DNA of 64,000 nucleotides. It comes from Candidatus Omnitrophota bacterium (GTDB lineage Bacteria; Omnitrophota; Gorgyraeia; Gygaellales; Profunditerraquicolaceae). The notes under the pieces were generated by a model that did no database searches, was not told where the DNA came from, and saw nothing but the letters and a program-made list of their open reading frames with translations. A program made the position numbers and the translations under genes. Below, piece after piece: positions 6,336-21,287 of the stretch. Location of the stretch: assembly GCA_020058085.1 (NCBI GenBank), contig JAGVER010000005.1, forward strand, positions 2,743-66,742. Reading direction: 5' to 3'. The first letter of the stretch is position 1. Each line of letters opens with the position of its first letter.

Positions 6336-6550
6336 GCAGGAATATAGCACTTATTGTAATCTTTGGGTTCTGTGTATTGGGCCCTTGTGCTGTATTTGCC
6401 GCGGGTAGTTTCGCCAGTATTAACGCGCTGGGAAGGAATCCTTCAAGCGCGCCTAAAATATTTACCGCGATGATTATCGCGCTTGTTTTTGCTCAAGCCT
6501 TAGCAATTATAGCAATGTTAATAGTTTTTCAATTGTTCTCGCAATCATAG
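6332..6550 (+). CDS. ATPase c-subunit-like two-helix membrane hairpin lacking any acidic residue
   Basis: 72 aa with two hydrophobic helices joined by the polar loop GRNPSS (cf. ARQPE). It aligns nearly colinearly (one-residue offset) with 72-aa bacterial c subunits. ALVFAQALAIIAML corresponds to GVALVEALPIIGVV, with Gln55 (CAA, nt 6494-6496) at the ion-binding Glu position. The whole protein has no D or E, and the helix-1 GxGxGxG motif is degenerate. Confidence 0.6.
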   Translation: MSRNIALIVIFGFCVLGPCAVFAAGSFASINALGRNPSSAPKIFTAMIIALVFAQALAIIAMLIVFQLFSQS

Positions 6551-8804: not shown

Positions 8805-8807
8805 CCA

Positions 8808-9653
8808 ATGAAGACACTTTCAAACATAAAAAAAGATTTAGAGTTTAACCGCGGACTTTCTTCTTTAATCGAAGTGTTAAAAACTATGGCCGTGGCGCAA
8901 TACAGGATATTAGAGGAGAGGTTAAAGATTTTCGAGAAATTAATTGTATCCATAGAAGATTTTTTTGAGCATGTCGATATCACCAAGATTAATCATCCGT
9001 ATTTAATCCCCCAAAATAGATTTCAAGGAGTAGTGGCAATAACTTCTGACAGTGGGCTTTTGGGCGGCCTTAACATGCAGGTCGTCTCCGGCGCGCTTTT
9101 GGAATTAGAAAAGACCCCCGGCAAGCTTATTATTATCGGCGAACGCGGTAAACTTTATGTACGGGAGACTAACATTCCTTTTGTCTCTTTTGGCGGAGTT
9201 AAGGATGATGAGCGCTATGCCCAGGCCATGCAATTAAGGGATTATCTATTAGCTAAGGTTCTTGACGGCTCTTTCGGGTCTTTAAAGATAATTTATCCGC
9301 ATCCTGTATCTTTTACTGTGCAGCACGTGGAAACAGTTTCATTCCTGCCTTATAAGCCGAATTTAGTTAAGGAGAATACCGCTCTCCAAGCTTATCCAGA
9401 AGTTATTTTAGAATCAAGGGTAGGTGATATTATGCAATATTTGGTGTATACCTGGATGGGCCAGAAAATTTATGAAATCTTCGGCTTAAGCCGCTTGGCA
9501 GAATTTGCTGCCCGTTTTGTGCATCTTGAAGGAAGCCATCAGAGATTAAGAGAAATGGATACTAAAATTAAATTGGAGTATTTTCATGTCAGGCACGAAC
9601 TTATTGACCGTAATATGCGTGAGCTTTTCGCGGCAAGATTAGCTTTTTCTTAA
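8808..9653 (+). CDS. atpG: F-type ATPase gamma subunit
   Basis: 281 aa lying between alpha and beta. The N-terminal helix IKKDLEFNRGLSSLIEVLKTMAVAQY and C-terminal helix RHELIDRNMRELFAARLA fit the gamma coiled coil. Confidence 0.75.
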   Translation: MKTLSNIKKDLEFNRGLSSLIEVLKTMAVAQYRILEERLKIFEKLIVSIEDFFEHVDITKINHPYLIPQNRFQGVVAITSDSGLLGGLNMQVVSGALLELEKTPGKLIIIGERGKLYVRETNIPFVSFGGVKDDERYAQAMQLRDYLLAKVLDGSFGSLKIIYPHPVSFTVQHVETVSFLPYKPNLVKENTALQAYPEVILESRVGDIMQYLVYTWMGQKIYEIFGLSRLAEFAARFVHLEGSHQRLREMDTKIKLEYFHVRHELIDRNMRELFAARLAFS

Positions 9654-9656
9654 TAT

Positions 9657-11057
9657 ATGAAAGAAAATAAAGATATTATAATAGGGCATGTATCCGCGGT
9701 TCAGGGGCCTGTAGTGGATGTTAAATTCCAGAATTCAGTTGATGTGCCTAATATATTCAGCGTTATTCAAACCCAAACCATAGATAAAGAAAAGGTTGTT
9801 TTAGAGGTAGCAGAACATCTTCCGGGAAACATTGCCCGTTGCATTGCTATTAACTCGACGATAAATCTTCAGCGTAATCAGGAAGCCTACTCAAGTGGCG
9901 CTACTATTCAAATTCCTACAGGCGATATGCTTTATGGGCGCATAATAAATATGTTGGGGGAGCCCATTGATCAGAAAGGCGAAATTAAAAGTTCAGAGAG
10001 ATCTAATATAAGAAAAGCAGATATGGGAAGCCAGGTTAGATTAAAAAAAGATTTCCATAGGAGCTTTGATGTAATGGAGACCGGGATTAAAGTTATTGAT
10101 CTTCTTTTTCCCGTGGTTAAGGGAGGCAAAACCGGGATTTTAGGTGGCGCGGCTTTGGGAAAAAGTATTTTAACCCTGGAAATTATTCAGCATATTGTAA
10201 AAAGGCATCAGGGTAGCTGCGTATTTGTGGGTGTCGGTGAGCGTATCCGCGAGGGAAACGAGCTTTATTATGAATTATTAAAACACGAAGTTTTAGCTAA
10301 AACAATGATGGTCTTTGGCCAGATGAATGAGCCTCCGGGAGCCCGTTTCGGCGTGGCAATGACAGGTATTACCTTGGCTGAATCTGTTCAAAGGAAGAAT
10401 CAGGATGTCCTGCTTTTTGTGGATAATATTTTCAGGTTTGTTCAGGCAGGAGCAGAGATATCTACCCTTTTAGGCCGCGTTCCATCGGAGACAGGTTATC
10501 AGCCTACCTTGATTTCAGAGGCGAGTGAATTTCATGAGAGGATACGTTCTTCACAGGAAGCAGGCGGCGCGATTACTTCTTTTGAAGCAGTATATGTTCC
10601 TGCCGATGATTTAACTGATCCGGCAGTAGTAGCTATTTTTAGTTTCTTGGATTCAATTCTGGTACTTTCACGCGAACGCATACAATTGGGTTTGTATCCT
10701 GCGGTAGATCCCTTATTATCGTCCTGCGCTAATTTGGATATTGATATCGTCGGCAGAAAACATTTTGATATTTCTCAAGAGGTAATCAGGATTTTTCAGA
10801 GATACGAAGAATTAAGGCGCATTGTTTTAGTTGTGGGAATCGATGAATTATCGTCCACCGACCGCATTCTTTATGAACGCGCCAGAAAATTACAGAATTT
10901 TCTTACCCAGCCATTTTTTGTCGCGGAGACTTACACCGGTAAAAAGGGAGAGTATGTCACTTTGCCCCAGACTCTCGAAGGTTGTGAAAGGATTATCGCG
11001 GGAAGAGTTGATTCTATCCCCGAGGAACAATTTTATTTGATTGGTGTTTTGCCCTAA
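9657..11057 (+). CDS. atpD: F-type ATPase beta subunit (catalytic)
   Basis: 466 aa. P-loop GGAALGKS, VGVGERIREGNELY, DVLLFVDNIFRFVQAG, GRVPSETGYQPTL, YVPADDLTDPA. The DELSEED region reads DELSSTD. Confidence 0.92.
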   Translation: MKENKDIIIGHVSAVQGPVVDVKFQNSVDVPNIFSVIQTQTIDKEKVVLEVAEHLPGNIARCIAINSTINLQRNQEAYSSGATIQIPTGDMLYGRIINMLGEPIDQKGEIKSSERSNIRKADMGSQVRLKKDFHRSFDVMETGIKVIDLLFPVVKGGKTGILGGAALGKSILTLEIIQHIVKRHQGSCVFVGVGERIREGNELYYELLKHEVLAKTMMVFGQMNEPPGARFGVAMTGITLAESVQRKNQDVLLFVDNIFRFVQAGAEISTLLGRVPSETGYQPTLISEASEFHERIRSSQEAGGAITSFEAVYVPADDLTDPAVVAIFSFLDSILVLSRERIQLGLYPAVDPLLSSCANLDIDIVGRKHFDISQEVIRIFQRYEELRRIVLVVGIDELSSTDRILYERARKLQNFLTQPFFVAETYTGKKGEYVTLPQTLEGCERIIAGRVDSIPEEQFYLIGVLP

Positions 11058-11059
11058 AG

Positions 11060-11527
11060 ATGATTAGAAGTCCCAAAAGATTAGGTGATATCTTAATAGA
11101 GAAAGGCTTGATAACCCAAGAAGTGTTAGATGATGCTTTACGCGAGCAGCGGGAAACAAAGGAATTCTTGGGCGCAATATTATTAAGAAAAAAACGGATC
11201 AAAGAAGCGGATTTGTTAACGGCGCTATCTGAACAATTTCATATTCCACTTTTTAGTTTGAAAGATAAATATATTGATTGGAATTTAGTCAAGGGCTTCA
11301 GCGCTTCGCTAATTTTAGATTACAGATGTTTCCCTGTAGCCAAAGATGATTGGTCAATAACCATGGCCATAACTAACCCCTTGGATATCCGGGTACTAAA
11401 GAGGGTCGAAGATGAAGCAAAGGGATTAAGATTGAAATTAGTTTTGGTTTCCGAGGGAGATATCAACGATTCTATTAAGAGGTACAATAGCTATCTAAGG
11501 GGTAATATTTCTAAACTATTCGAGTAA
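11060..11527 (+). CDS. Stand-alone GspE/MshE N-terminal (MshEN / T2SSE_N) domain protein, predicted c-di-GMP receptor
   Basis: 155 aa. Residues 7-30, RLGDILIEKGLITQEVLDDALREQ, match the 24-residue MshEN motif RLGxx[LVI][LVI]xxG[LVI][LVI]xxxxLxxxLxxQ exactly. After a 5-residue spacer comes a second copy, FLGAILLRKKRIKEADLLTALSEQ, with G->K at one position. Confidence 0.8.
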   Translation: MIRSPKRLGDILIEKGLITQEVLDDALREQRETKEFLGAILLRKKRIKEADLLTALSEQFHIPLFSLKDKYIDWNLVKGFSASLILDYRCFPVAKDDWSITMAITNPLDIRVLKRVEDEAKGLRLKLVLVSEGDINDSIKRYNSYLRGNISKLFE

Positions 11528-11530
11528 AAT

Positions 11531-13684
11531 ATGCCTAAGAAACTAGATATAATTTTATCAGAAGCATTAATTGAAAAAAGGTTAATCGCGCAGAATGATA
11601 TAGGCAATTTTCTTAAAGAGGCTGAGTCATTGAATGAAAGCCTGCAGCAAATTTTAATTAAACGGGGCATTTTTCCTGAAAAAGATATTTTGAATATTTT
11701 GGGGGAAAAATTAAAGTTATCCAGCGTTAACTTAAGAGAGATCACAATTGATAAAGCTGTTTTAGCAAAAGTCCCGGTCAAAATTGCCTTGTATTATAGA
11801 TTCGTCCCGGTTCAAATAAAAGACAGGGTTTTAACTATTGCGGTTTCTTGCCCGTTAGAGATAAAAATCCAGGATGAGGTAAGGGCGCAGCTGGGTTATG
11901 ATATTGAGACGGTTCTCTCTTCTTCGGGCGATCTCCTGGAATCCCTGAAGAAATATTATGGCTTGGCGGCCGATACCTTAGAAAAGATTTCTTCTAACGT
12001 CCAGCAGGCCGAAGCATCCCACGAAACGCATTTTGAGACAGTAGAGGATATTGAAAAGCTGGCAGGAGACGCTTCGGTAATAAAATTGGTCAACCAGATA
12101 ATTCTGGAGGGATTCAGGAAACGCGCTACCGATATTCACATTGAGCCTTATAGAGAAGGGGTCTCTTTACGTTATCGCATTGACGGGTTGCTTTACGACG
12201 CAAATTTTCCTCCCGAAATAAAGAATTTCTTAAGCGCTATAATTTCCCGTATTAAGATAATGTCCAATTTAAATATTGTTGAGCGTAGGCTACCCCAGGA
12301 TGGCAGGGCGATAGTAAAGGTTGGAGAGCAGATGCTGGATCTGCGTATTTCCACAATACCTACGCCATTCGGGGAAAGTGTGGTAGTAAGGATCCTGCCT
12401 ACGCAGATGCTTTTTAGCCTGGAGAAGCTTGGGCTTGGGAAAAAAGATTTGCAGGTTTTTGAGGGATTAATTAAGAAACCCCATGGTATAATTTTTGTTA
12501 CCGGTCCGACAGGGAGCGGAAAGACTACTACCTTGTATGCCTGTTTAAGCAGGATTAATACCAAAGAACGTAAAATTATTACCATTGAGGATCCTATTGA
12601 GTATGAAATGTCCGGGATTACCCAGATACAGGTTAGTCCGGATATCGGCCTGGATTTTGCCCGGGGATTACGCAGTATTTTAAGGCATGACCCGGATGTA
12701 ATAATGGTAGGAGAGGTCAGGGATTTAGAAACCGCAGAAATAGCTATTCGCGTGGCCTTGACCGGCCACCTTGTATTTTCCACTCTCCATACTAATGATG
12801 CTGCCAGCGGTATCACCAGATTAATAGACATAGGAGTCGAACCGTTTCTTTTGGCTTCCAGCGTTGAGGCATTCATTGCCCAGCGTTTAATAAGATTAAT
12901 TTGTCCTGATTGTAAAATTGAGGATAACGCCGCTCCCATAGAATTAAAAGAGCTGATTGCCCGGGACATTTCCTTGAAGTCCTTAAATGAGGTTAAGATA
13001 TTTAAAGGTAAGGGTTGCCCGAGTTGCAACTTTACCGGATTTTTCGGCAGGACCGCAATTTACGAAATACTCCCGGTGGACGAAGCAATGAAGGATTTAA
13101 TTTTGAAGAAAGCCACTGCTACTCAGATAAAAAGGCTTGCTCTTTCAAAAGGGATGCGTACATTGCGTCAGGATGGTTGGCATAAAGTAATTCTCGGAGC
13201 GACCACCCCTGAAGAAGTGATGAAAGTTACTTCTGCCGAAGAGTATACGGAAGAAGATAAAAATGCCCGGTTCCTTCCCGCCGGTTCTTTAAAGCCAGTA
13301 ACTTATCAAGTCCCAAATCCCGATGAGAAAAGGGCGTATCTTCGCTTAAACAGCAAAGTGAATTTACGTTATAAAGTATTTGATACGGCAGAGAAGCTGC
13401 TCAAAAAAGGATTTAAGCCGGAAGAGTTTAGCGTTACAAATAATCTTTCCGCGGGGGGCCTGGTCTTTTTTTCAGACGATATGCTGGCTGTTGGTTTGAT
13501 TTTAGAATTAACTATAGAACTGCCTGATAGCGAGGAGCCGATAGGATGCCTGGCTAAAGTGGTAAGGCTGGAAGAGAGGCAGGATCATAAAGGTTATAAT
13601 GTTGCAGTTTGTTTTCTGGATATAACCGGCGCAGGAAGATCAAGGCTAGGAAGGTACATAGAATTAGAAACGGAGATGATATAA
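11531..13684 (+). CDS. GspE/PilB-family secretion ATPase with N-terminal T2SSE_N domain and C-terminal PilZ domain
   Basis: 717 aa. Walker A GPTGSGKTTT, Asp/His boxes, tetracysteine CPDC...CPSC. The C-terminal ~120 aa carry the PilZ motifs KRAYLR (RxxxR) and NLSAGG ([DN]xSxxG). Confidence 0.9.
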   Translation: MPKKLDIILSEALIEKRLIAQNDIGNFLKEAESLNESLQQILIKRGIFPEKDILNILGEKLKLSSVNLREITIDKAVLAKVPVKIALYYRFVPVQIKDRVLTIAVSCPLEIKIQDEVRAQLGYDIETVLSSSGDLLESLKKYYGLAADTLEKISSNVQQAEASHETHFETVEDIEKLAGDASVIKLVNQIILEGFRKRATDIHIEPYREGVSLRYRIDGLLYDANFPPEIKNFLSAIISRIKIMSNLNIVERRLPQDGRAIVKVGEQMLDLRISTIPTPFGESVVVRILPTQMLFSLEKLGLGKKDLQVFEGLIKKPHGIIFVTGPTGSGKTTTLYACLSRINTKERKIITIEDPIEYEMSGITQIQVSPDIGLDFARGLRSILRHDPDVIMVGEVRDLETAEIAIRVALTGHLVFSTLHTNDAASGITRLIDIGVEPFLLASSVEAFIAQRLIRLICPDCKIEDNAAPIELKELIARDISLKSLNEVKIFKGKGCPSCNFTGFFGRTAIYEILPVDEAMKDLILKKATATQIKRLALSKGMRTLRQDGWHKVILGATTPEEVMKVTSAEEYTEEDKNARFLPAGSLKPVTYQVPNPDEKRAYLRLNSKVNLRYKVFDTAEKLLKKGFKPEEFSVTNNLSAGGLVFFSDDMLAVGLILELTIELPDSEEPIGCLAKVVRLEERQDHKGYNVAVCFLDITGAGRSRLGRYIELETEMI

Positions 13685-13688
13685 CAAT

Positions 13689-14903
13689 ATGGGCACGTAT
13701 AAATATCGCGCAAAAAAAGGTTTTAATGAAGTTGTGGAAGGGTTAATTGACGCGCAGTCTGAAAAAGAAGCGATTGAAAAGTTAAGCTCTATGGAGTTGT
13801 TGCCCTTACACTTGGAAGAAGCCCGTGCCAGTAAATCTAAATCCATTTCTTTAGTCAAATTTCGCGGTAAAATTAAATCACGCGAAATTACTATTTTCAG
13901 CCGTCAATTAGCCAGCCTTTTGAAATCCGGCGTAGCTATTTTAAACGCCCTTAATATTATCAATGATCAGTCTGATGATTCTAACCTGAAAAATATACTT
14001 TATAATATTAGCAATGCAATAAAAGATGGCGCTACATTTTCTTCGGTGCTTGCGCAATATCCCCGGGTTTTTTCTCCTCTTTATGTTGCCATGATCCGCA
14101 CGGGAGAAGGCAGCGGGTCGCTTCCGGATGTGCTTTTAAGGATATCTGACTATCGCATCAAGCAAGAAGAGATGCTTTCGCGTTTTCGTATGGCCCTTGT
14201 TTACCCGATACTCATGGCAGTTGTGGGCCTGGGCACTATAATTTTTATGCTCACATTTGTAATGCCAAGATTAATGAAGATATTTTTGAGCATGGGGCAG
14301 GATTTACCTTTACCTACCCGTATTTTAATTGCGATAAGTGGTTTTCTTTGCCATAGCTGGTTTTGGGTAGTCTTAATTTTGGCAATCATAATTTTAATTC
14401 TTCGTAGAGAACTAAGGACAAAGTCCGGAAGGCTATCTTTGAGCCTGTTTAAATTACACCTTCCTTTGTTCGGAAAGCTTATCCTTAAAGCTGAACTTGC
14501 CCGTTTTTGCCGTACCCTGGAATTACTCATAAAAGATGGCATCACTATATTAAAGGCGATTGAAATAGCTGTTCCGGTAATTGACAACGAAATAATAAAG
14601 AACCATTTATTGCAGAGTTATCAACAACTACAGCGCGGCGGTTCTTTTGGTAGGAGTTTAAGAAATGTAAAATTATTTCCTGTTTTCATGAGTAACCTTA
14701 TAGGAGTAGGCGAAGAATCAGGCAGGCTTGATGAGGCCTTGGCGGAAGTGGCAGGTAATTACGAGCGGGATACTGACGAAGCAATTAAGGTAATGAACAG
14801 TCTCTTAGAGCCGGTGATGATTTTAGTAATGGGCTTAATCGTAGGTTTTATCGTGGTTGCAATGATTCTGCCCATATTTGAAATCAACATGATGGCTAAA
14901 TGA
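13689..14903 (+). CDS. GspF/PilC-family inner-membrane platform protein
   Basis: 404 aa with a duplicated T2SSF domain architecture, three TM segments, and a position directly after the GspE-like ATPase. Confidence 0.9.
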   Translation: MGTYKYRAKKGFNEVVEGLIDAQSEKEAIEKLSSMELLPLHLEEARASKSKSISLVKFRGKIKSREITIFSRQLASLLKSGVAILNALNIINDQSDDSNLKNILYNISNAIKDGATFSSVLAQYPRVFSPLYVAMIRTGEGSGSLPDVLLRISDYRIKQEEMLSRFRMALVYPILMAVVGLGTIIFMLTFVMPRLMKIFLSMGQDLPLPTRILIAISGFLCHSWFWVVLILAIIILILRRELRTKSGRLSLSLFKLHLPLFGKLILKAELARFCRTLELLIKDGITILKAIEIAVPVIDNEIIKNHLLQSYQQLQRGGSFGRSLRNVKLFPVFMSNLIGVGEESGRLDEALAEVAGNYERDTDEAIKVMNSLLEPVMILVMGLIVGFIVVAMILPIFEINMMAK

Positions 14904-15757
14904 TAAAGAAAGTAAAGATTTTACTTATTTTCCCGCTGCTATTTTTATCTTTATCTATAGCTAAGGCGGAAGAGTGGCAGGAGTTAAAGAGTGAACATTT
15001 TATCGCTTATTTTACCCGGGATGAAAAATTCGTCAAAGAAGTATTGGATAAAGCAGAGGTTTATTATCGTAGCATCGCTTTAGATTTAGGGTATTCTAGA
15101 TACAAAGAATTCTGGACTTGGGATAAAAGAGTAAAAATTTATATTTATCCGGACCATGCCTCCTATTTAAAGGCAACGGGTCAACCTGACTGGTCTCAGG
15201 GGGTAGCGGATTACAGGGCTAAACAGATAATTAGTTTTATCTGGAGCAGGGGATTTCTTGAATCGCTTCTTCCTCACGAAATGGCCCATTTGATTTTTAG
15301 GGATTTTGTGGGTTTTGAAAGCGATATACCCCTCTGGTTAGATGAAGGCGTGGCGCAATGGGCAGAAGATGTAAAAAGAGGGACAATGAAGAGGATGGTC
15401 AAGGATGCTTATAATCAGAATGGATTATTGAGTATGAATGATATGATGAAATTAGAGATTAGGAATTTAAAGGATAAAAACCTGGTTTTTATCCGGCCAA
15501 CACGCACAAAAGAAGGCAACGACGGAGTTGTAATTTTAAATAGCACTAATTTAGTTAATCTTTATTATTTAGAGGCCGCTTCACTAGTAGATTTTCTTAT
15601 AGCAAAATATGGCTCTGATAGTTTTGCTAATTTGTGTCGTCAGCTGCGCGACGGCAAGCAGATAGAAGAGGCCTTAACTTTTACTTATCCTAGTTCTATC
15701 CGTAGTATCGGTGACTTGGATAATCAGTGGAGAGATTATATAGCGAGGCAGTATTGA
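14900..15757 (+). CDS. Secreted zinc metalloprotease-like protein (peptidase MA-like, HExxH)
   Basis: Signal peptide MIKKVKILLIFPLLFLSLSIAKA. HEMAH at LLPHEMAHLIF and a downstream LWLDEGVAQWAE (gluzincin-type third ligand). ATGA overlap with the GspF-like gene. Confidence 0.6.
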   Translation: MIKKVKILLIFPLLFLSLSIAKAEEWQELKSEHFIAYFTRDEKFVKEVLDKAEVYYRSIALDLGYSRYKEFWTWDKRVKIYIYPDHASYLKATGQPDWSQGVADYRAKQIISFIWSRGFLESLLPHEMAHLIFRDFVGFESDIPLWLDEGVAQWAEDVKRGTMKRMVKDAYNQNGLLSMNDMMKLEIRNLKDKNLVFIRPTRTKEGNDGVVILNSTNLVNLYYLEAASLVDFLIAKYGSDSFANLCRQLRDGKQIEEALTFTYPSSIRSIGDLDNQWRDYIARQY

Positions 15758-15770
15758 CCAGGAGGGATTA

Positions 15771-16184
15771 ATGACTGGAATTAAAAAAACAGATGGTTTT
15801 ACTTTAATTGAGCTTATGCTTGTGGTTGTAATTATCGGTGCATTAGTGGCTATGGTTATGCCCAGGCTTACCGGAAGAGGCGAGCAGGCGCGCGTTGGCG
15901 CGGCCATGGCAGATATCCGCGCTAACATTGCCACTGCTTTAAAACTTTACGAATTAGATAATGGTAGTTTCCCCAGGACAGAAGAAGGATTGAATGCTTT
16001 ATTGAATAAACTTGCTTCTGCGTCAAACTGGAACGGCCCATATCTGGAAAAAAGCCCGGTAGACCCCTGGGGTAGGGAATATAAATATAAATGTCCGGGC
16101 GAACACAGGCCGGCGGATTACGATTTGTATTCATTAGGTAAAGACGGAGTGGAAAGCCAGGATGATGCCAAAAATTGGGAATAA
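15771..16184 (+). CDS. gspG: Type II secretion major pseudopilin GspG
   Basis: Prepilin leader MTGIKKTDG|FTLIELMLVVVIIG. C-terminus NGPYLEK.PVDPWGREYKYKCPGEHRPADYDLYSLGKDG is the classic GspG signature. Confidence 0.9.
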   Translation: MTGIKKTDGFTLIELMLVVVIIGALVAMVMPRLTGRGEQARVGAAMADIRANIATALKLYELDNGSFPRTEEGLNALLNKLASASNWNGPYLEKSPVDPWGREYKYKCPGEHRPADYDLYSLGKDGVESQDDAKNWE

Positions 16185-16557
16185 GCGGGCATTTACCCTT
16201 CTGGAGGTAATGGTTACTACCGCGGTATTATCATTAGGGACTGTTTTAATACATGAATCATTTTTTATTACTTTGGATTCATATGATTATTGTTCTAATT
16301 ATTTTAATGTTGCTCCATGGATGGATGAAAAAATCTGGCAGGTGCGGGATAATATAATCCGTCTTGGTTCATCCAGCCAGATAGAAACAAGCGGCACATT
16401 TACAATCAAAAATAAAGATTTTTCCTGGAATTTATCGCATAGTTTAGTAGAAGGCGCACAAGATTTGCATAAACTGGATCTGGTTGTTTTCTGGAAAGAA
16501 GGTCAGAGAAAGGTAAAATTATCAAGGACTGCTTATGCTAAGTATGCGCAAAGTTAG
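16162..16557 (+). CDS. Minor pseudopilin (prepilin-type N-terminal domain)
   Basis: N-terminus ...KRAFTLLEVMVTTAVLSLG has the conserved Glu5. The -1 residue is Ala rather than Gly. Confidence 0.6.
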   Translation: MMPKIGNKRAFTLLEVMVTTAVLSLGTVLIHESFFITLDSYDYCSNYFNVAPWMDEKIWQVRDNIIRLGSSSQIETSGTFTIKNKDFSWNLSHSLVEGAQDLHKLDLVVFWKEGQRKVKLSRTAYAKYAQS

Positions 16558-17119
16558 CCCGGGAATTACCCTTATTGAGTTACTCATTGTTACCGTATTG
16601 CTATCTGTAGTTTCAATGGCAGTATACGCAACTTTTAACAATGGCATAAAAATCTGGCAGAAACTGAATACACCGGTAGAGGGAGAAGATTTGGGTATTT
16701 TTTTTGATAAATTCACCCGGGACCTGGCGAATGGTTTCAAATTTTCAACTATTCCATTTTCGGGGTCAGAAGACAGGTTCCAATTCGCCACTCTCGTTAA
16801 CAGCCCAAGATTAGGCGGGAAGACAGTGGGCGAGGTAGTTTATTATTATGACCGCGGCAGCGTAACCTTAAATAGGCAGGAACTGGATTTCTCCCTGGTT
16901 TATAAAGGAGAAGAATCCGTAAGTAATCAGAAATTAAGCAATGTAAGATCCCTAAAATTTCAGTACTATTTTTATGATAAAGAAAAAAAAGAATATTCTT
17001 GGCAGGACGAATGGTTGAAAGAGACTCTACCTGTGGCTGTAAAGGTGGAATTTGAGATTAACTATGGTAAGGAAAATAACAAGTTCACGAAGACAGCCAA
17101 TATTCCCGTTGGCAGCTAA
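16535..17119 (+). CDS. Minor pseudopilin, GspJ/PulJ-like
   Basis: N-terminus ...SPG|ITLIELLIVTVLLSVVS. Size and beta-rich C-terminal part fit GspJ-like proteins. Confidence 0.6.
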   Translation: MLSMRKVSPGITLIELLIVTVLLSVVSMAVYATFNNGIKIWQKLNTPVEGEDLGIFFDKFTRDLANGFKFSTIPFSGSEDRFQFATLVNSPRLGGKTVGEVVYYYDRGSVTLNRQELDFSLVYKGEESVSNQKLSNVRSLKFQYYFYDKEKKEYSWQDEWLKETLPVAVKVEFEINYGKENNKFTKTANIPVGS

Positions 17120-18113
17120 AAAGGGAAGCATATTAATAATTGTGTTGTGGTCGCTTTGTTTATTAACTACTTTTGCTGTAATATTGGGTTATGGAGTTAG
17201 GCAGAAGCTTTCTTTGGCCAGCCGGATAGATGAGAGAGATAAGTTGCATTTTATCGTCGGGATTGGTGCAGAAAGGGCGATCCTTGAATTGAAGAATGAA
17301 CCGGAAAAGACTTATGACGTTTTTAAGGATAACTGGAGCAGTAATACCAACGCGTTTAAAGATATAGATATTGGCGACGCCAGGATTAATATCTGCTATA
17401 ATTATATCAACGAGCCTCAGGGGTTAGTTGAGGTTAGGTACGGGCTCATTGATGAGGAAAGAAAAATAAACATAAATAAGGCTGAGGTAAAAGTATTAGA
17501 GCGGTTTTTTCGCATTGCTCTTAATTACAATGAGAATCAGGCGCAGGAGTTGGCCGCATCTATTGTTGACTGGCGCGATAGTGATAGTGAACTATCCGTC
17601 CCTTTAGGCAGCGCGGAAGATTCATATTACAGGGATCTTGAGCAACCCTATGAAGCAAAGGACGCGGTATTTGAAATTTTAGAAGAACTCCTTTTGGTTA
17701 GAGGCATTAGAGAGGATAGCTTCCAGAAAATAAAAGATTATCTTACTGTCTACGGAAGTGGTAGAATTAATATCAATACCGTTTCTAAGCCGGTTCTTTT
17801 GGCCTTAGGATTAAGTGATGATATTACAGGTAAGATCTTAAATTTTCGTTCGGGAGAGGACGGGATTTTAGGTACCGACGATGACAATGTTTTCGATCAG
17901 ACCGCGAATATACTGCCGAAGTTAAGCCAGTTTTATGACTTAAGCGAATCTGAAGTAGCGGCGCTTAGCGCGGTTGTCAGCGAATATTTAACTACAAAAT
18001 CAAATATTTTTATGGCCAAAAGCACAGCCAGATTAAACGGCAAGAATTATACAGAAGAATTGACTTGCGTGTTTGACCGCAAGGGCAAGATTCTTTATTG
18101 GCAGGAGCAGTAA
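17052..18113 (+). CDS. GspK-like minor pseudopilin
   Basis: Hydrophobic N-terminus KKGSILIIVLWSLCLL without Glu5 (a GspK hallmark), plus HhH-like segments (RININTVSKPVLLALGL). The start is uncertain: ATG 17052/17064 or in-frame TTG 17109. Confidence 0.6.
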   Translation: MRLTMVRKITSSRRQPIFPLAAKKGSILIIVLWSLCLLTTFAVILGYGVRQKLSLASRIDERDKLHFIVGIGAERAILELKNEPEKTYDVFKDNWSSNTNAFKDIDIGDARINICYNYINEPQGLVEVRYGLIDEERKININKAEVKVLERFFRIALNYNENQAQELAASIVDWRDSDSELSVPLGSAEDSYYRDLEQPYEAKDAVFEILEELLLVRGIREDSFQKIKDYLTVYGSGRININTVSKPVLLALGLSDDITGKILNFRSGEDGILGTDDDNVFDQTANILPKLSQFYDLSESEVAALSAVVSEYLTTKSNIFMAKSTARLNGKNYTEELTCVFDRKGKILYWQEQ

Positions 18114-19601
18114 ATGTCTGGGGTCAACTTAAAGAGAATTAATCTTAGATCCTTCGCGAGAAACAGAAATGAACTTGTAGGCATAGATTTTAGCGGCAAT
18201 AATTTAAAGTTTGCCCATGCAAGAATCTCATCTAATAAAAGAGAGGTGATCAATCTTTCTAGCCGCGATATAAGCGGCCTAGCCGATGCCGATATCTCCA
18301 AGGTTATAAGGTCCGGCTATGGCGAATTAGGCGCTAAAAACCCACAAATTATAAATATCATACCTCCGCATTTGGTGATAACTAAGAATATTGAAATTCC
18401 TTCGGTTAATGAAAAAGAGATAAGAGAGATTATAAACCTGCAGGCAGGCAGGCATACTCCATATTCGCGCGAAGAGATAATTGTGGATTATATTGATATA
18501 GGCACTTACAAGAATAGTTATACCAAAATACTTTTGGTGATTGTTGCGCGTAGTGTCGTAAAAAGGCAGTTTGAGATATTGGATAAAGCCGGCCTTCAGT
18601 TAGAGCGGGTGTTGCTTGCTCCGGAAGGCTTGGCCTGGTCTGTTTCCAAGGTATTAAAGATTGAAACCCAGGATTCTCCGGCTAACGTCGTACATATTGA
18701 TGAAGGTTTTACCGATTTTAGTATTGTTTTTAAGAATAACGTAGTCTTTATCAGGTCTATCCCCATAGGAACAAGGCATTTATTAAATGAGAAGGGAAAG
18801 TATGAAAGCAGATTTGTTGAAGAGCTTAAAAATTCTCTCGAGGCTTATCAAAATGAGGATATAGAAAAGAGCCCCAGTGTTATTATTTTAACAGGAGCTG
18901 TTGAAGAATTAAAAGATTTGGAAGCCGTCTTAAATAGCAGTTTGCATTTGCCTATTAAAGTAATGCCTTATTTTAAGAATCTTACAATTTCAGACCAGGC
19001 ATTAAAGGCAGCATCCGCAACAAGGAATTTATCTTTTCTGAATGTAATTGCCCCTCTTCTTACAACGCAAGATATGAAGATAAACCTTGTGCCCGAGGAA
19101 GTAAAACTAAGAAAATCGCTTGAAGAAAAAGGAAGAGATCTGATTAAAGCAGGGATTTTTGTTTTATTGTCTTTTGTTTTGTTATTTTCTATAATGGCAA
19201 GTAAAATTTATTTTAAAAGCGCTTATTTAAAGGTTTTAAATAATAAATACCAGCCATTGAGCCAGGATGCGCAAAAATTAGAAGAAGATTTTACCAAAGT
19301 GAGCGCGATAAAAGGTTATCTGGCTAAGCGCGGATATCTTTTAGAGATATTAACTGAATTATATAATGTTACTCCGGAGGGCTTAGAGTTAAACGATATC
19401 CGTTTTGATGAGCAGGGTAAGTTTACCGTTAGAGGCGTTGCTGAGTCCATGTCTACGGTATTTTCTTTTGTTGGCAGTATGGAAAAATCAAAATATTTTG
19501 AAGATGTTAAGACCAAATACACCTCAAAACGAAAAGACGGGATGAAAGATGTAACTGATTTTGAGATAGCTGCTTCGCTTAAAAAGTATTTTTCTTCATG
19601 A
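18114..19601 (+). CDS. PilM-PilN fusion (GspL-like) assembly protein
   Basis: N-terminal actin-like PilM region (VGIDFSGNNLKFAHARIS...), then a single TM (IFVLLSFVLLFSIMASKIYF), then a PilN-like periplasmic domain. Confidence 0.7.
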   Translation: MSGVNLKRINLRSFARNRNELVGIDFSGNNLKFAHARISSNKREVINLSSRDISGLADADISKVIRSGYGELGAKNPQIINIIPPHLVITKNIEIPSVNEKEIREIINLQAGRHTPYSREEIIVDYIDIGTYKNSYTKILLVIVARSVVKRQFEILDKAGLQLERVLLAPEGLAWSVSKVLKIETQDSPANVVHIDEGFTDFSIVFKNNVVFIRSIPIGTRHLLNEKGKYESRFVEELKNSLEAYQNEDIEKSPSVIILTGAVEELKDLEAVLNSSLHLPIKVMPYFKNLTISDQALKAASATRNLSFLNVIAPLLTTQDMKINLVPEEVKLRKSLEEKGRDLIKAGIFVLLSFVLLFSIMASKIYFKSAYLKVLNNKYQPLSQDAQKLEEDFTKVSAIKGYLAKRGYLLEILTELYNVTPEGLELNDIRFDEQGKFTVRGVAESMSTVFSFVGSMEKSKYFEDVKTKYTSKRKDGMKDVTDFEIAASLKKYFSS

Positions 19602-20161
19602 AAATAATAAATCTGCAGGTTTTGTCTATGGTTCTTTCTCGTTTATCTAAAAGAGAAAAGGCCATTCTTTATGGCACGGTTCTTGTCGTATCTTTGACCG
19701 CGATAGATCGCTTAATAATAAATCCTATTTTCTCTAAGATGGAGGCGTTAAATAAGCAGATACAGGAAAAAGATGCCGGGATTAAAAAGGATTTGCGCAT
19801 ACTGGCGCAGAAAGAGAGGATCCTGGCTGAAAAGGTAAAATATGCCTCTTTTTTAAGTTCTTCAGCATCCGAAGAAGAAGAGATGACCTCAATTTTGAAA
19901 GAAGTTGAAGCCTTGGCGGGAAAAAGTTCGGTGTATCTTGTCGATATGAAGCCCGTGGGTTTGAAAAAGTCCGGTTCATCGGAAAAATACCTGATTAATG
20001 TTAATTGCGAGGCGCAAATGGAACAACTTACTGAATTTATTTATAATATAGAAAGTTCAAACAAGTTACTCTCCGTTGAGAAGTGCCAGATAAACCCGAA
20101 ATCAAAAGATTCAAGCGTGGTAAAGTGCAGTATGTCAATAGCCAAAATAGTGGTAAAATAA
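19598..20161 (+). CDS. PilO/GspM-like bitopic assembly protein
   Basis: N-terminal TM (AILYGTVLVVSLTAIDRLII), a coiled coil, then a small alpha/beta C-terminal domain. ATGA overlap with the PilMN gene. Confidence 0.5.
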   Translation: MKIINLQVLSMVLSRLSKREKAILYGTVLVVSLTAIDRLIINPIFSKMEALNKQIQEKDAGIKKDLRILAQKERILAEKVKYASFLSSSASEEEEMTSILKEVEALAGKSSVYLVDMKPVGLKKSGSSEKYLINVNCEAQMEQLTEFIYNIESSNKLLSVEKCQINPKSKDSSVVKCSMSIAKIVVK

Positions 20162-20163
20162 AT

Positions 20164-20379
20164 ATGCCTGATGCGATTACACAAGTAGGTTTGGTAGCCG
20201 GAGAGATATGGCATTTTATTAATGATAAGGGCGGTGAGGCAACTTTATCCGCGCTCTTAAGTTCCATAAACCATAGCCAACAAGTTGTTTTTATGAGCCT
20301 TGGCTGGTTAGCGCGCGAGGGCCAGGTGTTCTTGGAAGAAAAAGATAGTGATTTCAAGGTGGTAGTTAAAAAACGGTAA
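20164..20379 (+). CDS. Small winged-helix protein (DUF2582-like)
   Basis: The ATG at 20164 lies 2 nt after the upstream stop. MPDAITQVGLVAGEIWHFINDKGGEATLSALL...LGWLAREGQV fits the small wHTH family. The ORF-track start at 20083 would overlap the PilO-like gene by 79 nt. Confidence 0.5.
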   Translation: MPDAITQVGLVAGEIWHFINDKGGEATLSALLSSINHSQQVVFMSLGWLAREGQVFLEEKDSDFKVVVKKR

Positions 20380-20427
20380 CACCCGGCCTTAATGGATAGG
20401 CCGGTGTGCACTTACTGTGCAAGGAGG
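20379..20427 (+). promoter_or_regulatory. Hairpin-hairpin-SD leader motif (copy 1 of a repeated element)
   Basis: acacccggcc(20379-88)/ggccggtgtg(20399-408) form a stem with a bulged C. A second hairpin, tgcac-ttact-gtgca, is followed by SD aggagg (20422-27) and the ATG at 20433. The motif is nearly identical to 22028-22076. Confidence 0.6.
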
Positions 20428-20432
20428 TTTAG

Positions 20433-20924
20433 ATGAAGAAAGTAACCGGTATTATCTTAGCCTTGTTGATAGCCACAAGCTTAAATTCTTTTGCCTTGGA
20501 TATTCCGCTTATGGACATGCGTAATAAAATCTTTGAAGAATCTAAAGTCATGAAGAAGAAATTGGCGAATTCAAAAGATATTATTTTCTTAAACAGCATG
20601 TGGGATTCATGCGTAATAGCGATTAACCAATTAGACGCGTATTTTTCTTTAGTGGGGATTTTTAATACTATTAAAAAAGAAAACCTGACAGAAGCTTCCG
20701 TAGGATACCTTATCAGTTGGCTAAATCAGACTAAGCAGACGAACGAATTGAATATAAAAAACCTGAATTCGTTGACATCTACATTTGAGGCAAGGACCAA
20801 GCTTTACAAGGCAAAATTAACAAATATTTTTACCGAGTTAGATAGCCACATAACTAAAGAGCTGGAGAAGCTTTCGTTATTACAGAGATCTCTTCAAAAA
20901 ACTAAGCCCGGTAAGAAACCTTAG
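20433..20924 (+). CDS. Hypothetical secreted helical protein
   Basis: Signal peptide MKKVTGIILALLIATSLNSFA and a strong SD. I recognise no family. Confidence 0.6.
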   Translation: MKKVTGIILALLIATSLNSFALDIPLMDMRNKIFEESKVMKKKLANSKDIIFLNSMWDSCVIAINQLDAYFSLVGIFNTIKKENLTEASVGYLISWLNQTKQTNELNIKNLNSLTSTFEARTKLYKAKLTNIFTELDSHITKELEKLSLLQRSLQKTKPGKKP

Positions 20925-20933
20925 GGTATGTGA

Positions 20934-21287
20934 ATGTTTATCAAAATAAAAAATATCTGCCTGTTAGCTATATTTTCTCTTATTATTTTATTCCCTCTCT
21001 TCGCGCAGGATGATACGGGCCTGAAGGAAGATGCCGAGGGGAAAACAGTAATTAAGACTGTATCCGGGCTTAAATTTGAAGTTCCTGAAGACAGGCCCAT
21101 CGAAGAGAGGAATAATATTATCGCCCCAATGCCCTTGGATGAATATGTCGCGTTAAAATTTTCGAAGTTTGAATCCCGCTTGCAGAAAATCGAGGAGAAT
21201 ATCAACCAAATTCAGGATCAATTAAATATTATTCAAGGGGAGTTAAACTCACCCAAGGCCAAAGAAAACCCTTCGCAAAAACCGTAA
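20934..21287 (+). CDS. Hypothetical secreted protein with C-terminal coiled coil
   Basis: Signal peptide MFIKIKNICLLAIFSLIILFPLFAQ. The C-terminal heptad-like segment is LQKIEENINQIQDQLNIIQGEL. Confidence 0.55.
   Translation: MFIKIKNICLLAIFSLIILFPLFAQDDTGLKEDAEGKTVIKTVSGLKFEVPEDRPIEERNNIIAPMPLDEYVALKFSKFESRLQKIEENINQIQDQLNIIQGELNSPKAKENPSQKP

What the first reader, a model, noticed from the sequence alone, without database searches (positions are those of the whole stretch)
11060..20379. T2SS/T4P hybrid gene set without secretin, GspC or prepilin peptidase
Present are the E ATPase, the F platform, a bona fide GspG, three minor pseudopilins (one with Ala at -1, one GspK-like without Glu5), a PilM-PilN fusion that mimics GspL, and a PilO/GspM-like protein. 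Absent from the whole 64-kb window are GspD/PilQ, GspC/PilP and the PilD/GspO peptidase. The operon ends with a small wHTH protein. The mix of T2SS-type pseudopilins with T4P-type PilMNO alignment parts, and the lack of an outer-membrane conduit in cis, suggests a non-canonical pseudopilus. It could be periplasmic or a piston working with the giant protein. Alternatively the secretin may be encoded elsewhere.
Basis: partly seen in the sequence, partly recalled or inferred. Interest (0 to 1): 0.6.

Follow-up and report, generated by a model that had tools for sequence, protein, structure and literature searches.

The report
Conserved Omnitrophota pseudopilus assembly operon
This is an intact, widely conserved gene cluster of the uncultured phylum Omnitrophota that builds a short pilus-like fibre under c-di-GMP control. 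The locus type is already published, and its missing outer-membrane pore and processing enzyme are most likely encoded elsewhere in the genome.

Summary
The gene set is real and sits at the stated coordinates. It holds a PilB/GspE ATPase, GspF, a bona fide GspG, three minor pseudopilins, a full PilM+PilN fusion and a GspM/PilO-like protein. No secretin, GspC/PilP or prepilin peptidase lies anywhere in the 64 kb.

- a separate MshEN-only c-di-GMP receptor gene (11060-11527);
- a C-terminal PilZ domain on the ATPase;
- a signal-peptide zinc metalloprotease (14900-15757) between F and G.

The cluster is the tail of one tightly packed gene run. That run starts with a giant membrane-anchored Ig-repeat protein, followed by an F1-like ATPase that has no a subunit and no carboxylate in its c subunit.

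The same order recurs in at least six independent Omnitrophota assemblies, and none has a secretin within about 10 kb. Seymour et al. 2023 already described these 'F-type ATPase/T4aP loci' across the phylum.

The pseudopilins keep intact prepilin-peptidase sites, so the peptidase must be unlinked. An unlinked secretin is therefore the simplest reading, but I could not test it genome-wide.

Verdict: an ordinary new member of a described locus class. It is a T2SS-ordered, GspG-type filament machine with a PilM-type platform. A secretin-free or composite machine remains a minority possibility.

The parts
1..6078 (+). C-terminal ~2025 aa of a giant (at least 2925 aa) Ig-repeat surface protein with a C-terminal transmembrane anchor. 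It is the first gene of the run.
   Evidence: The frame is open from nt 1. It is 100% identical to the 2925-aa P0121. There is a faint Kre9_KNH Ig-like repeat match. The TM helix ...TWIVICTVIIFTGLLAGVLFFTW is read directly. Orthologues sit directly upstream of the ATPase in L013, L019 and L020.
6102..6335 (+). ATP synthase epsilon-like protein, N-terminal domain only (77 aa)
   Evidence: ORF. The orthologue in L013 is called ATP-synt_DE_N.
6332..6550 (+). ATP synthase c-like hairpin (72 aa) without the ion-binding carboxylate (Gln instead)
   Evidence: Helix 2 reads ...ALVFAQALAII. Relatives L002 and L008 have Ile at that position.
6602..7318 (+). b-delta fusion stator (N-terminal TM helix plus OSCP C-domain)
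   Evidence: Pfam OSCP 6e-14 and ATP-synt_B 1.7e-5.
7311..11057 (+). F1-like alpha (7311-8804), gamma (8808-9653) and beta (9657-11057) subunits. No a subunit is present in the operon.
   Evidence: Pfam. Alpha is close to canonical F1 alpha (2qe7, 463 bits). No a subunit appears in the window, L013, L018, L019 or L020.
11060..11527 (+). Stand-alone MshEN protein (155 aa) with a canonical tandem c-di-GMP-binding motif
   Evidence: MshEN 1.8e-12. NF053729 c-di-GMP_motif scores 61.6 bits against a cutoff of 38, residues 7-59. The motif RLGDILIEKGLITQEVLDDALREQ-RETKE-FLGAILLRKKRIKEADLLTALSEQ is read. The separate gene is conserved in L001, L003, L018 and L020.
11531..13684 (+). Assembly ATPase (717 aa): degenerate MshEN domain, GspE/PilB core, C-terminal PilZ
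   Evidence: T2SSE 1.5e-129 and PilZ 4.6e-11. GspE scores 589 bits and PilB 564 bits, both below cutoff. PDB PilB 5zfr scores 473 bits; EpsE scores 388 bits over the core only. Walker A GPTGSGKT, CPDC...CPSC, and PilZ RAYLR plus NLSAGG are read.
13689..14903 (+). Polytopic platform protein GspF/PilC
   Evidence: T2SSF 3.9e-55. GspF TIGR02120 scores 373 bits, PilC models 312 and 272.
14900..15757 (+). Exported gluzincin zinc metalloprotease (Peptidase_MA_2). It lies immediately upstream of GspG in most relatives; L016 is the exception.
   Evidence: Pfam 4.5e-18. The signal peptide, HEMAH and WLDEGVAQW are conserved. AF2 pLDDT is 85. The fold is nearest M9 collagenase and M1 aminopeptidase catalytic domains, but only weakly (E about 1e-4). 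More than 1200 homologues were found; the named ones are mainly Omnitrophota. Synteny.
15771..16184 (+). Major pseudopilin GspG (leader MTGIKKTDG|FTLIE)
   Evidence: T2SSG 6e-31. TIGR01710 scores 135 bits against a cutoff of 88.9. PDB 5wda 5e-24.
16162..16557 (+). Small minor pseudopilin, GspI/H-sized (KRA|FTLLE)
   Evidence: N_methyl 2.3e-5. Orthologues alternate between G and A at -1.
16535..17119 (+). GspJ-like minor pseudopilin
   Evidence: N_methyl 1.2e-5 and T2SSJ 1.9e-5. gspJ TIGR01711 5e-7.
17052..18113 (+). GspK-like minor pseudopilin without Glu5 (KKG|SILII)
   Evidence: T2SSK_1st 5e-16. NF037980 2.5e-25. PDB XcpX 5vtm 2.6e-7. Orthologues.
18114..19601 (+). PilM-PilN fusion (495 aa), topologically equivalent to GspL
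   Evidence: PilM_2 plus PilN. AF2 model: actin-like domain 20-316, helix 328-405, ferredoxin-like domain 410-489. Foldseek places PilM well ahead of GspL-cyto. At least 120 clusters share 57% or more identity; every organism-named one is Omnitrophota/Omnitrophica.
19598..20161 (+). GspM/PilO-like bitopic protein
   Evidence: T2SSM_b 9e-6 and PilO 1.3e-3. GspM_XpsM 1e-9.
20164..20379 (+). Small DUF2582 winged-helix protein (ORF 20083-20379). It is seen only in this window, not in the relatives' loci.
   Evidence: DUF2582 2e-14. It is absent from L011, L015, L016, L017, L018 and L019.
20433..20924 (+). Conserved signal-peptide protein of unknown function (163 aa) that always follows the M gene
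   Evidence: No Pfam match. Orthologues in L003, L011, L015, L016, L017, L018 and L019 share the MWDSC...QLDAYF motifs.
20934..21287 (+). Small signal-peptide ORF (117 aa). Its membership in the system is uncertain.
   Evidence: No Pfam match. It is followed by a terminator-like hairpin at 21443-21464.

Best explanation
This is the inner-membrane and filament half of a type IV filament machine built on the T2SS plan. It is conserved across Omnitrophota as the tail of a larger gene run (giant anchored Ig-repeat protein, then F1-like ATPase, then this cluster).

**Proposed mechanism.**
1. c-di-GMP is sensed by the stand-alone MshEN protein and by the PilZ domain fused to the hexameric PilB/GspE-type ATPase.
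2. The ATPase docks on a cytoplasmic ring formed by the PilM part of the PilM-PilN fusion. That fusion pairs with the GspM/PilO-like protein in the periplasm.
3. The ATPase drives the GspF platform to polymerise GspG.
4. Polymerisation starts beneath a priming tip of the small pseudopilin, GspJ and the Glu5-less GspK.

**Unlinked parts.** The pseudopilins must be cleaved by an unlinked prepilin peptidase. Most probably the fibre works through an unlinked secretin.

**Proposed output.** The fibre exports or exposes envelope factors. The exported zinc protease encoded just before GspG is the obvious candidate cargo.

**Shown versus inferred.** Gene content, domain content, motifs, folds and synteny are shown. 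The order of events, the cargo and the existence of an unlinked secretin and peptidase are inferred.
For: - **Intact components.** All components are intact and strongly matched.
- **T2SS-like order and scores.** The gene order is colinear with gsp operons, and G, F, J, K and M score best on T2SS models.
- **Fusion protein.** The PilM-PilN fusion is modelled with confidence and keeps the PilN INLVPEE motif.
- **c-di-GMP sensing.** The MshEN-only protein passes the NCBIfam c-di-GMP motif cutoff. The ATPase's own MshEN domain is degenerate, but its PilZ keeps RxxxR and NxSxxG.
- **Processing sites.** Pseudopilin cleavage sites are conserved in orthologues. Since no A24 peptidase lies within 64 kb, an unlinked peptidase is required.
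- **Synteny.** The same block, pepMA-G-H/I-J-K-L-M-orf160, recurs in at least six assemblies with 40-83% identity.
- **Outer membrane.** Relatives encode outer-membrane proteins: a TonB-dependent receptor Plug domain and an OEP/TolC.
- **Sibling cluster.** A sibling cluster has a PilP/GspC-like protein (weak T2SSC hit).
- **Secretins in the phylum.** The literature reports RcpA and gspD secretin genes, and TXSScan calls of 'complete T4aP', in Omnitrophota.
- **Protease.** The protease has a signal peptide, an intact HExxH...E site and a gluzincin fold.
Against: - **No secretin in cis.** No secretin, PilP/GspC or prepilin peptidase was seen in about 20 kb around the cluster in any of nine related loci, nor in 45 kb of a 649-kb contig.
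- **No genome-wide test.** I could not search any whole genome, so the unlinked secretin is an assumption.
- **PilM-type platform.** The platform protein is PilM-type, not GspL-type.
- **Ambiguous ATPase.** E is as close to PilB as to GspE and falls below both curated cutoffs.
- **Published label.** The published TXSScan-based label for these loci is T4aP, not T2SS.
- **Cargo is a guess.** Nothing shows that the protease or the giant protein is cargo.
- **F1-like ATPase unexplained.** Its tight, conserved linkage to the cluster is not explained by a plain T2SS model.
Confidence: 0.55

Rival explanations
1. It is a true surface type IVa-like pilus used to attach to, or move on, host or prey cells. 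This is how Seymour et al. labelled these loci. In this reading GspG is the pilin of an extended fibre, and c-di-GMP switches piliation on, as for the MSH pilus.
For: - The PilM-type cytoplasmic ring and full PilN.
- The PilB-like full-length match of E (5zfr, 473 bits).
- MshE-style c-di-GMP control.
- The published T4aP label, and reported expression of T4a pili in V. archaeovorus.
- The predatory or epibiotic lifestyle proposed for the phylum.
Against: - The major subunit passes the GspG equivalog cutoff and has the T2SSG globular domain, not a PilA-type head.
- It has GspK- and GspJ-type minor subunits.
- There is no PilT in the window or in any related locus.
- There is no PilP or PilQ.
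- A second, more pilus-like sibling cluster exists in relatives, with several plain prepilins, PilM_2 and a PilP-like protein. It could be the real T4aP.
Confidence: 0.2
2. It is a secretin-independent or composite machine. The pseudopilus stays in the periplasm, or uses an unknown outer-membrane exit. It works physically together with the membrane-anchored, non-ion-pumping F1-like ATPase and the giant anchored Ig-repeat proteins encoded in the same run, for example to extend, move or shed the giant adhesin.
For: - Secretin and PilP/GspC are absent in cis in all relatives.
- The spacing is operon-like: a 2-nt gap between the beta stop and the MshEN start, and overlapping or closely spaced genes throughout.
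- The E-ATPase adjacency survives even where F, G and the rest are elsewhere (L002, L007, L008).
- The ATPase lacks an a subunit and the c-ring carboxylate, so it is not a proton-driven synthase.
- The giant proteins carry a C-terminal TM anchor.
- Mycoplasma mobile offers a precedent for an F1-like ATPase powering giant surface 'legs' (cited).
Against: - The evidence is purely contextual, and gene adjacency does not show physical coupling.
- Prepilin peptidase is equally missing in cis yet clearly required, so absence in cis is a weak argument.
- L015 and L016 carry the G-to-M block without an adjacent ATPase.
- Secretin genes do exist in the phylum according to the literature.
Confidence: 0.15
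3. It is a decaying remnant of a T2SS or T4P that has lost its outer-membrane parts and no longer functions.
For: Secretin, GspC and the peptidase are missing from the window.
Against: - All 11 ORFs are intact.
- Orthologues share 40-83% identity, with conserved catalytic and processing motifs, across many assemblies.
- That pattern is strong purifying selection.
Confidence: 0.02

Closest known systems
Omnitrophota 'symbiotic F-type ATPase / type-4a pilus' loci (Seymour et al. 2023, Nat Microbiol, PMC10066038)
   Same: - The phylum matches: the closest loci are Omnitrophota MAGs.
- An atypical F-type ATPase sits directly next to a PilB/PilC/PilM-type cluster. The paper found co-location within 10 kb in 57 of 66 contigs and in every class.
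- A giant ORF lies nearby.
   Different: - The paper labels the cluster T4aP via TXSScan. In the text I could read, it does not describe the GspG/J/K-type subunits, the PilM-PilN fusion, the in-operon zinc protease, the MshEN-only partner, the PilZ fusion or the missing secretin.
- I did not reproduce their alpha-subunit phylogeny.
Canonical Gsp type II secretion system (Klebsiella Pul, Vibrio Eps, Pseudomonas Xcp)
   Same: - The gene order is E-F-G-(H/I)-J-K-L-M.
- GspG scores above the equivalog cutoff.
- The GspK-type cap lacks Glu5.
- There are GspF and GspM-like proteins.
- There is no retraction ATPase.
   Different: - There is no GspD, GspC or GspO in cis.
- There are only three minor pseudopilins.
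- The L position is a full PilM plus PilN, not the reduced GspL cytoplasmic domain.
- E has an MshEN N-terminus and a PilZ C-terminus.
- E, F, K and M all fall below the NCBIfam trusted cutoffs.
Type IVa pilus machine (P. aeruginosa, M. xanthus, T. thermophilus PilBCMNOPQ)
   Same: - The PilM fold, and the PilN N-terminal motif bound to it (here fused).
- A PilO-like partner.
- Full-length similarity of E to PilB.
   Different: - There is no PilP, PilQ, PilT or PilA-type pilin.
- The subunits are of T2SS type.
- PilM and PilN form one polypeptide.
V. cholerae MshE and other MshEN-type c-di-GMP-gated secretion ATPases (Wang et al. 2016, PMC5013675; Roelofs et al. 2015, PMC4624772)
   Same: A 53-residue tandem MshEN c-di-GMP motif sits at the head of a GspE/PilB-family system.
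   Different: - The canonical motif is on a separate 155-aa protein.
- The ATPase's own MshEN domain is degenerate.
- A canonical PilZ is fused at the ATPase C-terminus.
Mycoplasma mobile type-2 F1-like gliding ATPase with giant leg proteins (as cited by Seymour et al.; otherwise from my own knowledge)
   Same: An F1-like alpha/beta/gamma set that is not a proton-driven synthase is encoded with very large membrane-anchored surface proteins.
   Different: - The alpha subunit here is close to ordinary F1 alpha.
- A c-like subunit and a b-delta stator are present.
- The organism is probably diderm.
- No functional data exist.
E. coli T2SS-beta operon with its cargo metalloprotease SslE/YghJ encoded in the operon (from my own knowledge, not tested here)
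   Same: A signal-peptide zinc metalloprotease is encoded inside a T2SS-type operon, which suggests cognate cargo.
   Different: - The protease family differs (M60-like versus Peptidase_MA_2).
- The E. coli operon carries its own secretin, GspC and peptidase.

Membership tests
Type II secretion system (Gsp) | Outer-membrane secretin GspD | tested here: not met
   There is no Secretin Pfam hit in any ORF of at least 100 aa in the 64-kb window, nor in nine related loci. The test covers genes in cis only; a genome-wide test was not possible.
Type II secretion system (Gsp) | Major pseudopilin GspG | tested here: met
   TIGR01710 scores 135.3 bits against a cutoff of 88.85. T2SSG 6e-31. PDB GspG 5e-24.
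Type II secretion system (Gsp) | GspE ATPase and GspF platform | tested here: inconclusive
   GspE is the best model for E (589 bits), but this is below the cutoff of 630 and PilB scores 564. GspF is the best model for F (373 bits), but below the cutoff of 424.
Type II secretion system (Gsp) | Minor pseudopilins H, I, J, K, with K lacking Glu5 | tested here: inconclusive
   K-like (no Glu5), J-like and one small pseudopilin are present. A fourth minor subunit is missing, and all scores are below the equivalog cutoffs.
Type II secretion system (Gsp) | GspL with a reduced actin-like cytoplasmic domain | tested here: not met
   No T2SSL or GspL model hit. The fold is closest to full PilM (5e-22), with GspL-cyto at 1.7e-10.
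Type II secretion system (Gsp) | GspC (HR domain) and GspO prepilin peptidase | tested here: not met
   No T2SSC, PilP or Peptidase_A24 hit in the window. The test covers genes in cis only.
Type IVa pilus | PilM, PilN, PilO alignment subcomplex | tested here: met
   PilM_2 plus PilN on one polypeptide, and a weak PilO/T2SSM_b protein. The components are fused rather than separate.
Type IVa pilus | PilP lipoprotein and PilQ secretin | tested here: not met
   No hits in the window or in related loci (same calls as for GspD).
Type IVa pilus | PilT retraction ATPase | tested here: not met
   Only one T2SSE-family gene lies in the window. Whether one exists elsewhere in the genome is unknown.
Type IVa pilus | PilA-type major pilin | tested here: not met
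   The only major-subunit candidate is GspG-type. Pilin hits in PDB are confined to the N-terminal helix.
Omnitrophota F-type ATPase/T4aP locus (Seymour et al. 2023) | F-type ATPase alpha/beta genes within 10 kb of the PilB/PilC/PilM-type cluster, in an Omnitrophota genome | tested here: met
   The beta stop is at 11057 and the cluster starts at 11060. The nearest loci and protein names are Omnitrophota.
Omnitrophota F-type ATPase/T4aP locus (Seymour et al. 2023) | Alpha subunit in the non-respiratory 'type 2/3' clade | not tested
   No phylogeny was run. Indirect support comes from the missing a subunit, the c subunit without a carboxylate, and the truncated epsilon. Against it, alpha is close to ordinary F1 alpha in PDB.
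MshEN c-di-GMP receptor | Tandem 24-residue motifs (RLGxxhhxxGhhxxxxLxxxLxxQ) separated by 5 residues | tested here: met
   For the 155-aa protein, NF053729 scores 61.6 bits against a cutoff of 38, and the motif was read directly. The ATPase's own copy scores 18.6, so it does not meet the feature.
PilZ c-di-GMP receptor | RxxxR and (D/N)xSxxG motifs | tested here: met
   PilZ 4.6e-11 at residues 600-711. RAYLR and NLSAGG were read directly. Binding itself is not testable with these tools.

The most novel reading that the evidence does not exclude
The Gsp-like pseudopilus has no secretin of its own. Instead it is one module of a composite envelope machine specific to Omnitrophota, with three further modules:
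- a membrane-anchored F1-like rotary ATPase that cannot pump ions (no a subunit, carboxylate-free c-ring);
- giant C-terminally anchored Ig-repeat proteins;
- an exported zinc protease.

Together they would extend, move or fire adhesins and lytic factors at host or prey cells, switched by c-di-GMP. A PilB-type hexamer and an F1-type hexamer would then act in one apparatus.
Probability: 0.12. Interest if true: 0.85.

Novelty: new member of a known kind. Interest (0 to 1): 0.35.

Why it matters
As it stands, this is a well-preserved example of a locus class already reported across Omnitrophota. On its own it changes little.

Its value is descriptive. It shows that the 'T4aP' of those loci is really a gsp-ordered, GspG/J/K-type filament module, with four notable features:
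- an unreduced PilM-PilN fusion, a plausible living intermediate between T4aP PilM/PilN and T2SS GspL;
- a dedicated exported zinc protease;
- a split c-di-GMP input (MshEN-only protein plus PilZ-fused ATPase);
- direct continuity with an F1-like ATPase that looks unable to translocate ions.

Suppose complete genomes showed no matching secretin. The system would then be a rare case of a diderm type IV filament machine working without a secretin, and a lead into how ultra-small predatory or parasitic bacteria engage their hosts.

Tried and rejected
1. **Exact look-up of window proteins.** Two look-ups found nothing on record (E; the PilMN fusion), so the source contig could not be extended.
2. 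**Collection scans with E.** The genome contigs and metagenome-contig scans returned only five loci each.
3. **Large unexplained ORFs in relatives as possible secretins.** All turned out to be PAS/GAF histidine kinases:
   - L003, 654 aa;
   - L001, 1252 aa and 801 aa.
4. **Supplementary files of Seymour et al.** A search for pilQ, secretin, gspD, pilD and T2SS found no occurrences.
5. **Promoter and terminator scan of 5800-22600.** Counts equalled the shuffled expectation. Only the hairpin at 21443-21464 and the 11/12 promoter at 21891-21919 (before rpsO-pnp) are suggestive.
6. **The zinc protease as a stand-in for the missing prepilin peptidase.** Rejected for two reasons:
   - It has an N-terminal signal peptide, and hence a periplasmic location, whereas prepilin leaders are cut at the cytoplasmic face.
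   - It has a gluzincin fold, not a polytopic aspartic protease.
7. **orf163 (20433-20924) as a PilP/GspC or pilotin analogue.** It has no Pfam match, no lipobox Cys and no detectable HR domain.
8. **PDB sequence searches for F and M.** These did not discriminate T2SS from T4P.
9. **Reference-based E/F/G phylogeny.** Not attempted, because no labelled reference set was available offline. NCBIfam model scores were used instead.
10. **Cluster look-up of the identical proteins.** It gave no accession numbers.
11. **Rfam and tRNA scans.** Nothing was found inside the locus.

Full report
**1. What is in the sequence**

The stretch 11060-20379 contains eleven ORFs on the + strand. They are separated by gaps of at most 13 nt or overlap by a few bases.

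Profile searches identify them as follows:
- A 155-aa MshEN-only protein.
- A 717-aa ATPase with MshEN, T2SSE (1.5e-129) and PilZ domains.
- GspF/PilC (3.9e-55).
- A 285-aa Peptidase_MA_2 protein.
- GspG (T2SSG 6e-31; TIGR01710 135 bits against a cutoff of 88.9).
- A 131-aa prepilin-type protein.
- A GspJ-like protein.
- A GspK-like protein (T2SSK_1st 5e-16).
- A 495-aa PilM_2 plus PilN protein.
- A T2SSM_b/PilO-like protein.
- A DUF2582 winged-helix protein.

The N-termini read directly are TDG|FTLIE (G), KRA|FTLLE, SPG|ITLIE (J) and KKG|SILII (K, no Glu5).

All other ORFs of the window that are not overlapped by a gene were scanned. They are housekeeping genes. None matches Secretin, Peptidase_A24, T2SSC or PilP, and there is no second T2SSE-family (PilT-type) ATPase.

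- The first ORF is a separate gene.
- The ATPase has a PilZ tail.
- A protease gene lies between F and G.
- Two more signal-peptide ORFs follow the wHTH gene before a terminator-like hairpin at 21443-21464.

**2. The cluster is the tail of a longer gene run**

Immediately upstream lies an F-type ATPase set, with a 2-nt gap between the beta stop (11057) and the MshEN start (11060):
- an epsilon N-domain (6102-6335);
- a c-like hairpin (6332-6550);
- a b-delta fusion;
- alpha, gamma and beta.

There is no a subunit. The c-like protein has Gln where the ion-binding carboxylate belongs, and Ile in more distant relatives.

Before the ATPase lies a giant Ig-repeat protein. The window cuts it: the frame is open from nt 1, and the identical database protein is at least 2925 aa. 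It ends in a transmembrane helix and a short tail.

**3. Where it comes from, and how conserved it is**

The nearest loci and the named homologues are almost all Candidatus Omnitrophota MAGs.

The PilM-PilN fusion has at least 120 database clusters at 57-71% identity. The protease has more than 1200 homologues, and the listed 120 share 57-67% identity.

The same gene order, epsilon-c-b/delta-alpha-gamma-beta-(MshEN)-E(PilZ)-F-protease-G-H/I-J-K-PilMN-M-orf~160, is found in several places:
- L003, L011 and L013;
- L018;
- L019;
- L017, partly;
- L020, partly.

Several variants exist:
- Two-component sensor genes are inserted between F and the protease in L001, L003, L015, L020 and the P0113 contig.
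- L015 and L016 have the G-to-M block without an adjacent ATPase.
- In more distant 'Planctomycetota'-labelled MAGs (L002, L007, L008), only the PilZ-bearing E gene follows the ATPase.

The wHTH gene is unique to this window.

In none of these loci is there a Secretin or Peptidase_A24 hit. Each covers about 20 kb, and together they cover 45 kb of one 649-kb contig.

**4. T2SS, T4P or hybrid?**

*Evidence for T2SS.*
- The gene order is that of gsp operons.
- G passes the GspG equivalog cutoff.
- F, J, K and M score best on T2SS models, though below the cutoffs.
- The PDB matches of G and K are T2SS proteins.

*Evidence for T4P.*
- E is equidistant: GspE 589 bits and PilB 564 bits, both under their cutoffs. 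The best full-length PDB match is Geobacter PilB.
- The L position is not GspL. The AF2 model (pLDDT 81) shows three parts:
  - a complete actin-like domain;
  - the PilN N-terminal INLVPEE motif leading into a long helix;
  - a ferredoxin-like domain.
- Foldseek ranks PilM (5e-22, TM 0.6-0.7 on the target) well above the GspL cytoplasmic domain (1.7e-10).

The machine is laid out like a T2SS but keeps an unreduced PilM+PilN. Since GspL is regarded as a PilM-PilN fusion derivative (established view, e.g. Denise et al. 2019, from my knowledge), this may be an intermediate form. I did not run a phylogeny.

**5. Regulation**

The 155-aa protein carries a textbook tandem MshEN c-di-GMP motif (NF053729 61.6 bits against a cutoff of 38). 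The ATPase's own MshEN copy is degenerate (18.6 bits), but its PilZ domain keeps RxxxR and NxSxxG.

c-di-GMP control of MshE-type ATPases is established (PMC5013675, PMC4624772). Splitting the signal between a partner protein and a fused PilZ is, as far as I could find, not described. It is a detail rather than a new principle.

**6. The protease**

The protein has three defining features:
- a signal peptide;
- invariant HEMAH and WLDEGVAQW motifs;
- a confidently modelled gluzincin fold (pLDDT 85), distantly like M9 collagenase and M1 aminopeptidase catalytic domains (E about 1e-4).

It lies immediately upstream of GspG in the window, L003, L006, L011, L015, L017, L018, L019 and the P0113 contig.

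It cannot replace the prepilin peptidase, because both its topology and its fold are wrong. The most economical role is cognate cargo or an accessory of the pseudopilus. This is inference.

**7. The missing parts**

Orthologous pseudopilins keep G or A at -1 and Glu5. A class III signal peptidase must therefore exist, yet none lies within 64 kb. So essential partners of this system are unlinked, and absence of a secretin in cis carries little weight.

Four further observations bear on this:
- Relatives encode outer-membrane proteins: a TonB-dependent receptor Plug domain and an OEP/TolC.
- A sibling filament cluster next to this one in L016 ends with a protein that has a weak T2SSC (GspC/PilP HR-domain) hit.
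- Published surveys report RcpA and gspD genes and 'complete' T4aP sets in Omnitrophota.

The unlinked secretin therefore remains an assumption. I rate it at roughly 3 to 1 over a secretin-free machine.

**8. Comparison with the literature**

Seymour et al. [quoted passage not shown] West-Roberts et al. 2023 (bioRxiv 10.1101/2023.11.21.568195) noted T2SS-like loci and pilZ genes around giant genes.

The present locus is a clean member of that class. This analysis adds the following anatomical details:
- gsp-type subunits and gene order;
- the PilM-PilN fusion;
- the protease;
- the MshEN-only partner and the PilZ fusion;
- a carboxylate-free c subunit with no a subunit;
- conserved absence of secretin, PilP and PilD in cis.

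**9. Verdict**

The finding is real, but its headline, a secretin-less hybrid, rests on absence from a neighbourhood where absence is expected.

The best explanation is a c-di-GMP-gated, gsp-ordered pseudopilus assembly module whose peptidase, and probably its secretin, are encoded elsewhere (0.55).

The rivals are:
- a true surface T4a-like pilus (0.20);
- a secretin-independent composite machine with the F1-like ATPase and giant proteins (0.15);
- a decaying remnant (0.02).

Novelty: a new member of a known, recently described kind. Interest: 0.35.

Noticed in passing
L003:16184-16945 (same gene in L011/L012, about 7246-8028): In two related Omnitrophota MAGs, one open frame encodes a complete REC receiver domain that runs without a stop into the GspG prepilin (...AIEKVTAPKG|FTLIELM...). 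Gene callers disagree on a start codon. It looks like a prepilin whose 'leader peptide' is a response-regulator receiver domain.
   Followed up: partly
window 6102-11057: The F-type ATPase set has four unusual features: no a subunit, a c-like subunit with Gln (Ile in L002/L008) at the ion-binding carboxylate position, an epsilon reduced to its N-domain, and a fused b-delta stator. Alpha is nevertheless close to ordinary F1 alpha.
   Followed up: partly
L002, L007, L008 (about 4500-12300): In more distant MAGs labelled 'Planctomycetota', the PilZ-bearing PilB/GspE-type ATPase directly follows the F1-like beta subunit, but F, G and the rest are not nearby. The ATPase-to-ATPase adjacency is therefore more conserved than the E-F adjacency. 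A DUF1570/M1-like peptidase lies upstream.
   Followed up: partly
window 1-6078: The 'giant protein' is cut by the window start and is at least 2925 aa. It consists of about 90-aa Ig-like repeats, then a coiled-coil region, one C-terminal TM helix and a short cytoplasmic tail. Relatives have two such genes in tandem (2770 and 3070 aa in L013). Distant homologues in Bacteroidota carry T9SS sorting domains instead of the TM anchor.
   Followed up: partly
L016:1-6743 and the P0113 contig (12568-20723 of that locus): A second, paralogous filament cluster sits directly next to the G-to-M block in some relatives. It contains E of about 555 aa without PilZ, F, three or four plain prepilins, a PilM_2 protein of about 538 aa, a roughly 195-aa protein and a 133-153-aa protein with a weak T2SSC hit. 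It also lacks a secretin.
   Followed up: no
L001:4399-12738; L003:14223-16187; L015:1-6745; L020:17352-18410: Large PAS/GAF/CHASE4 histidine kinases and several REC proteins are inserted between F and the protease in many relatives, but not in this window, which instead has a small DUF2582 wHTH gene after M.
   Followed up: no
   Followed up: yes
L011:13684-14583: Two small stand-alone PilZ proteins (113 and 115 aa) lie a short distance downstream of the cluster in a relative. This echoes the pilZ genes reported near giant genes by West-Roberts et al..
   Followed up: no
window 30945-31153 and 36008-36081: An FMN riboswitch lies ahead of ribBA. A tRNA-Pro(CGG) overlaps the mechanically extended start of the acylphosphatase ORF at 36024.
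   Followed up: no
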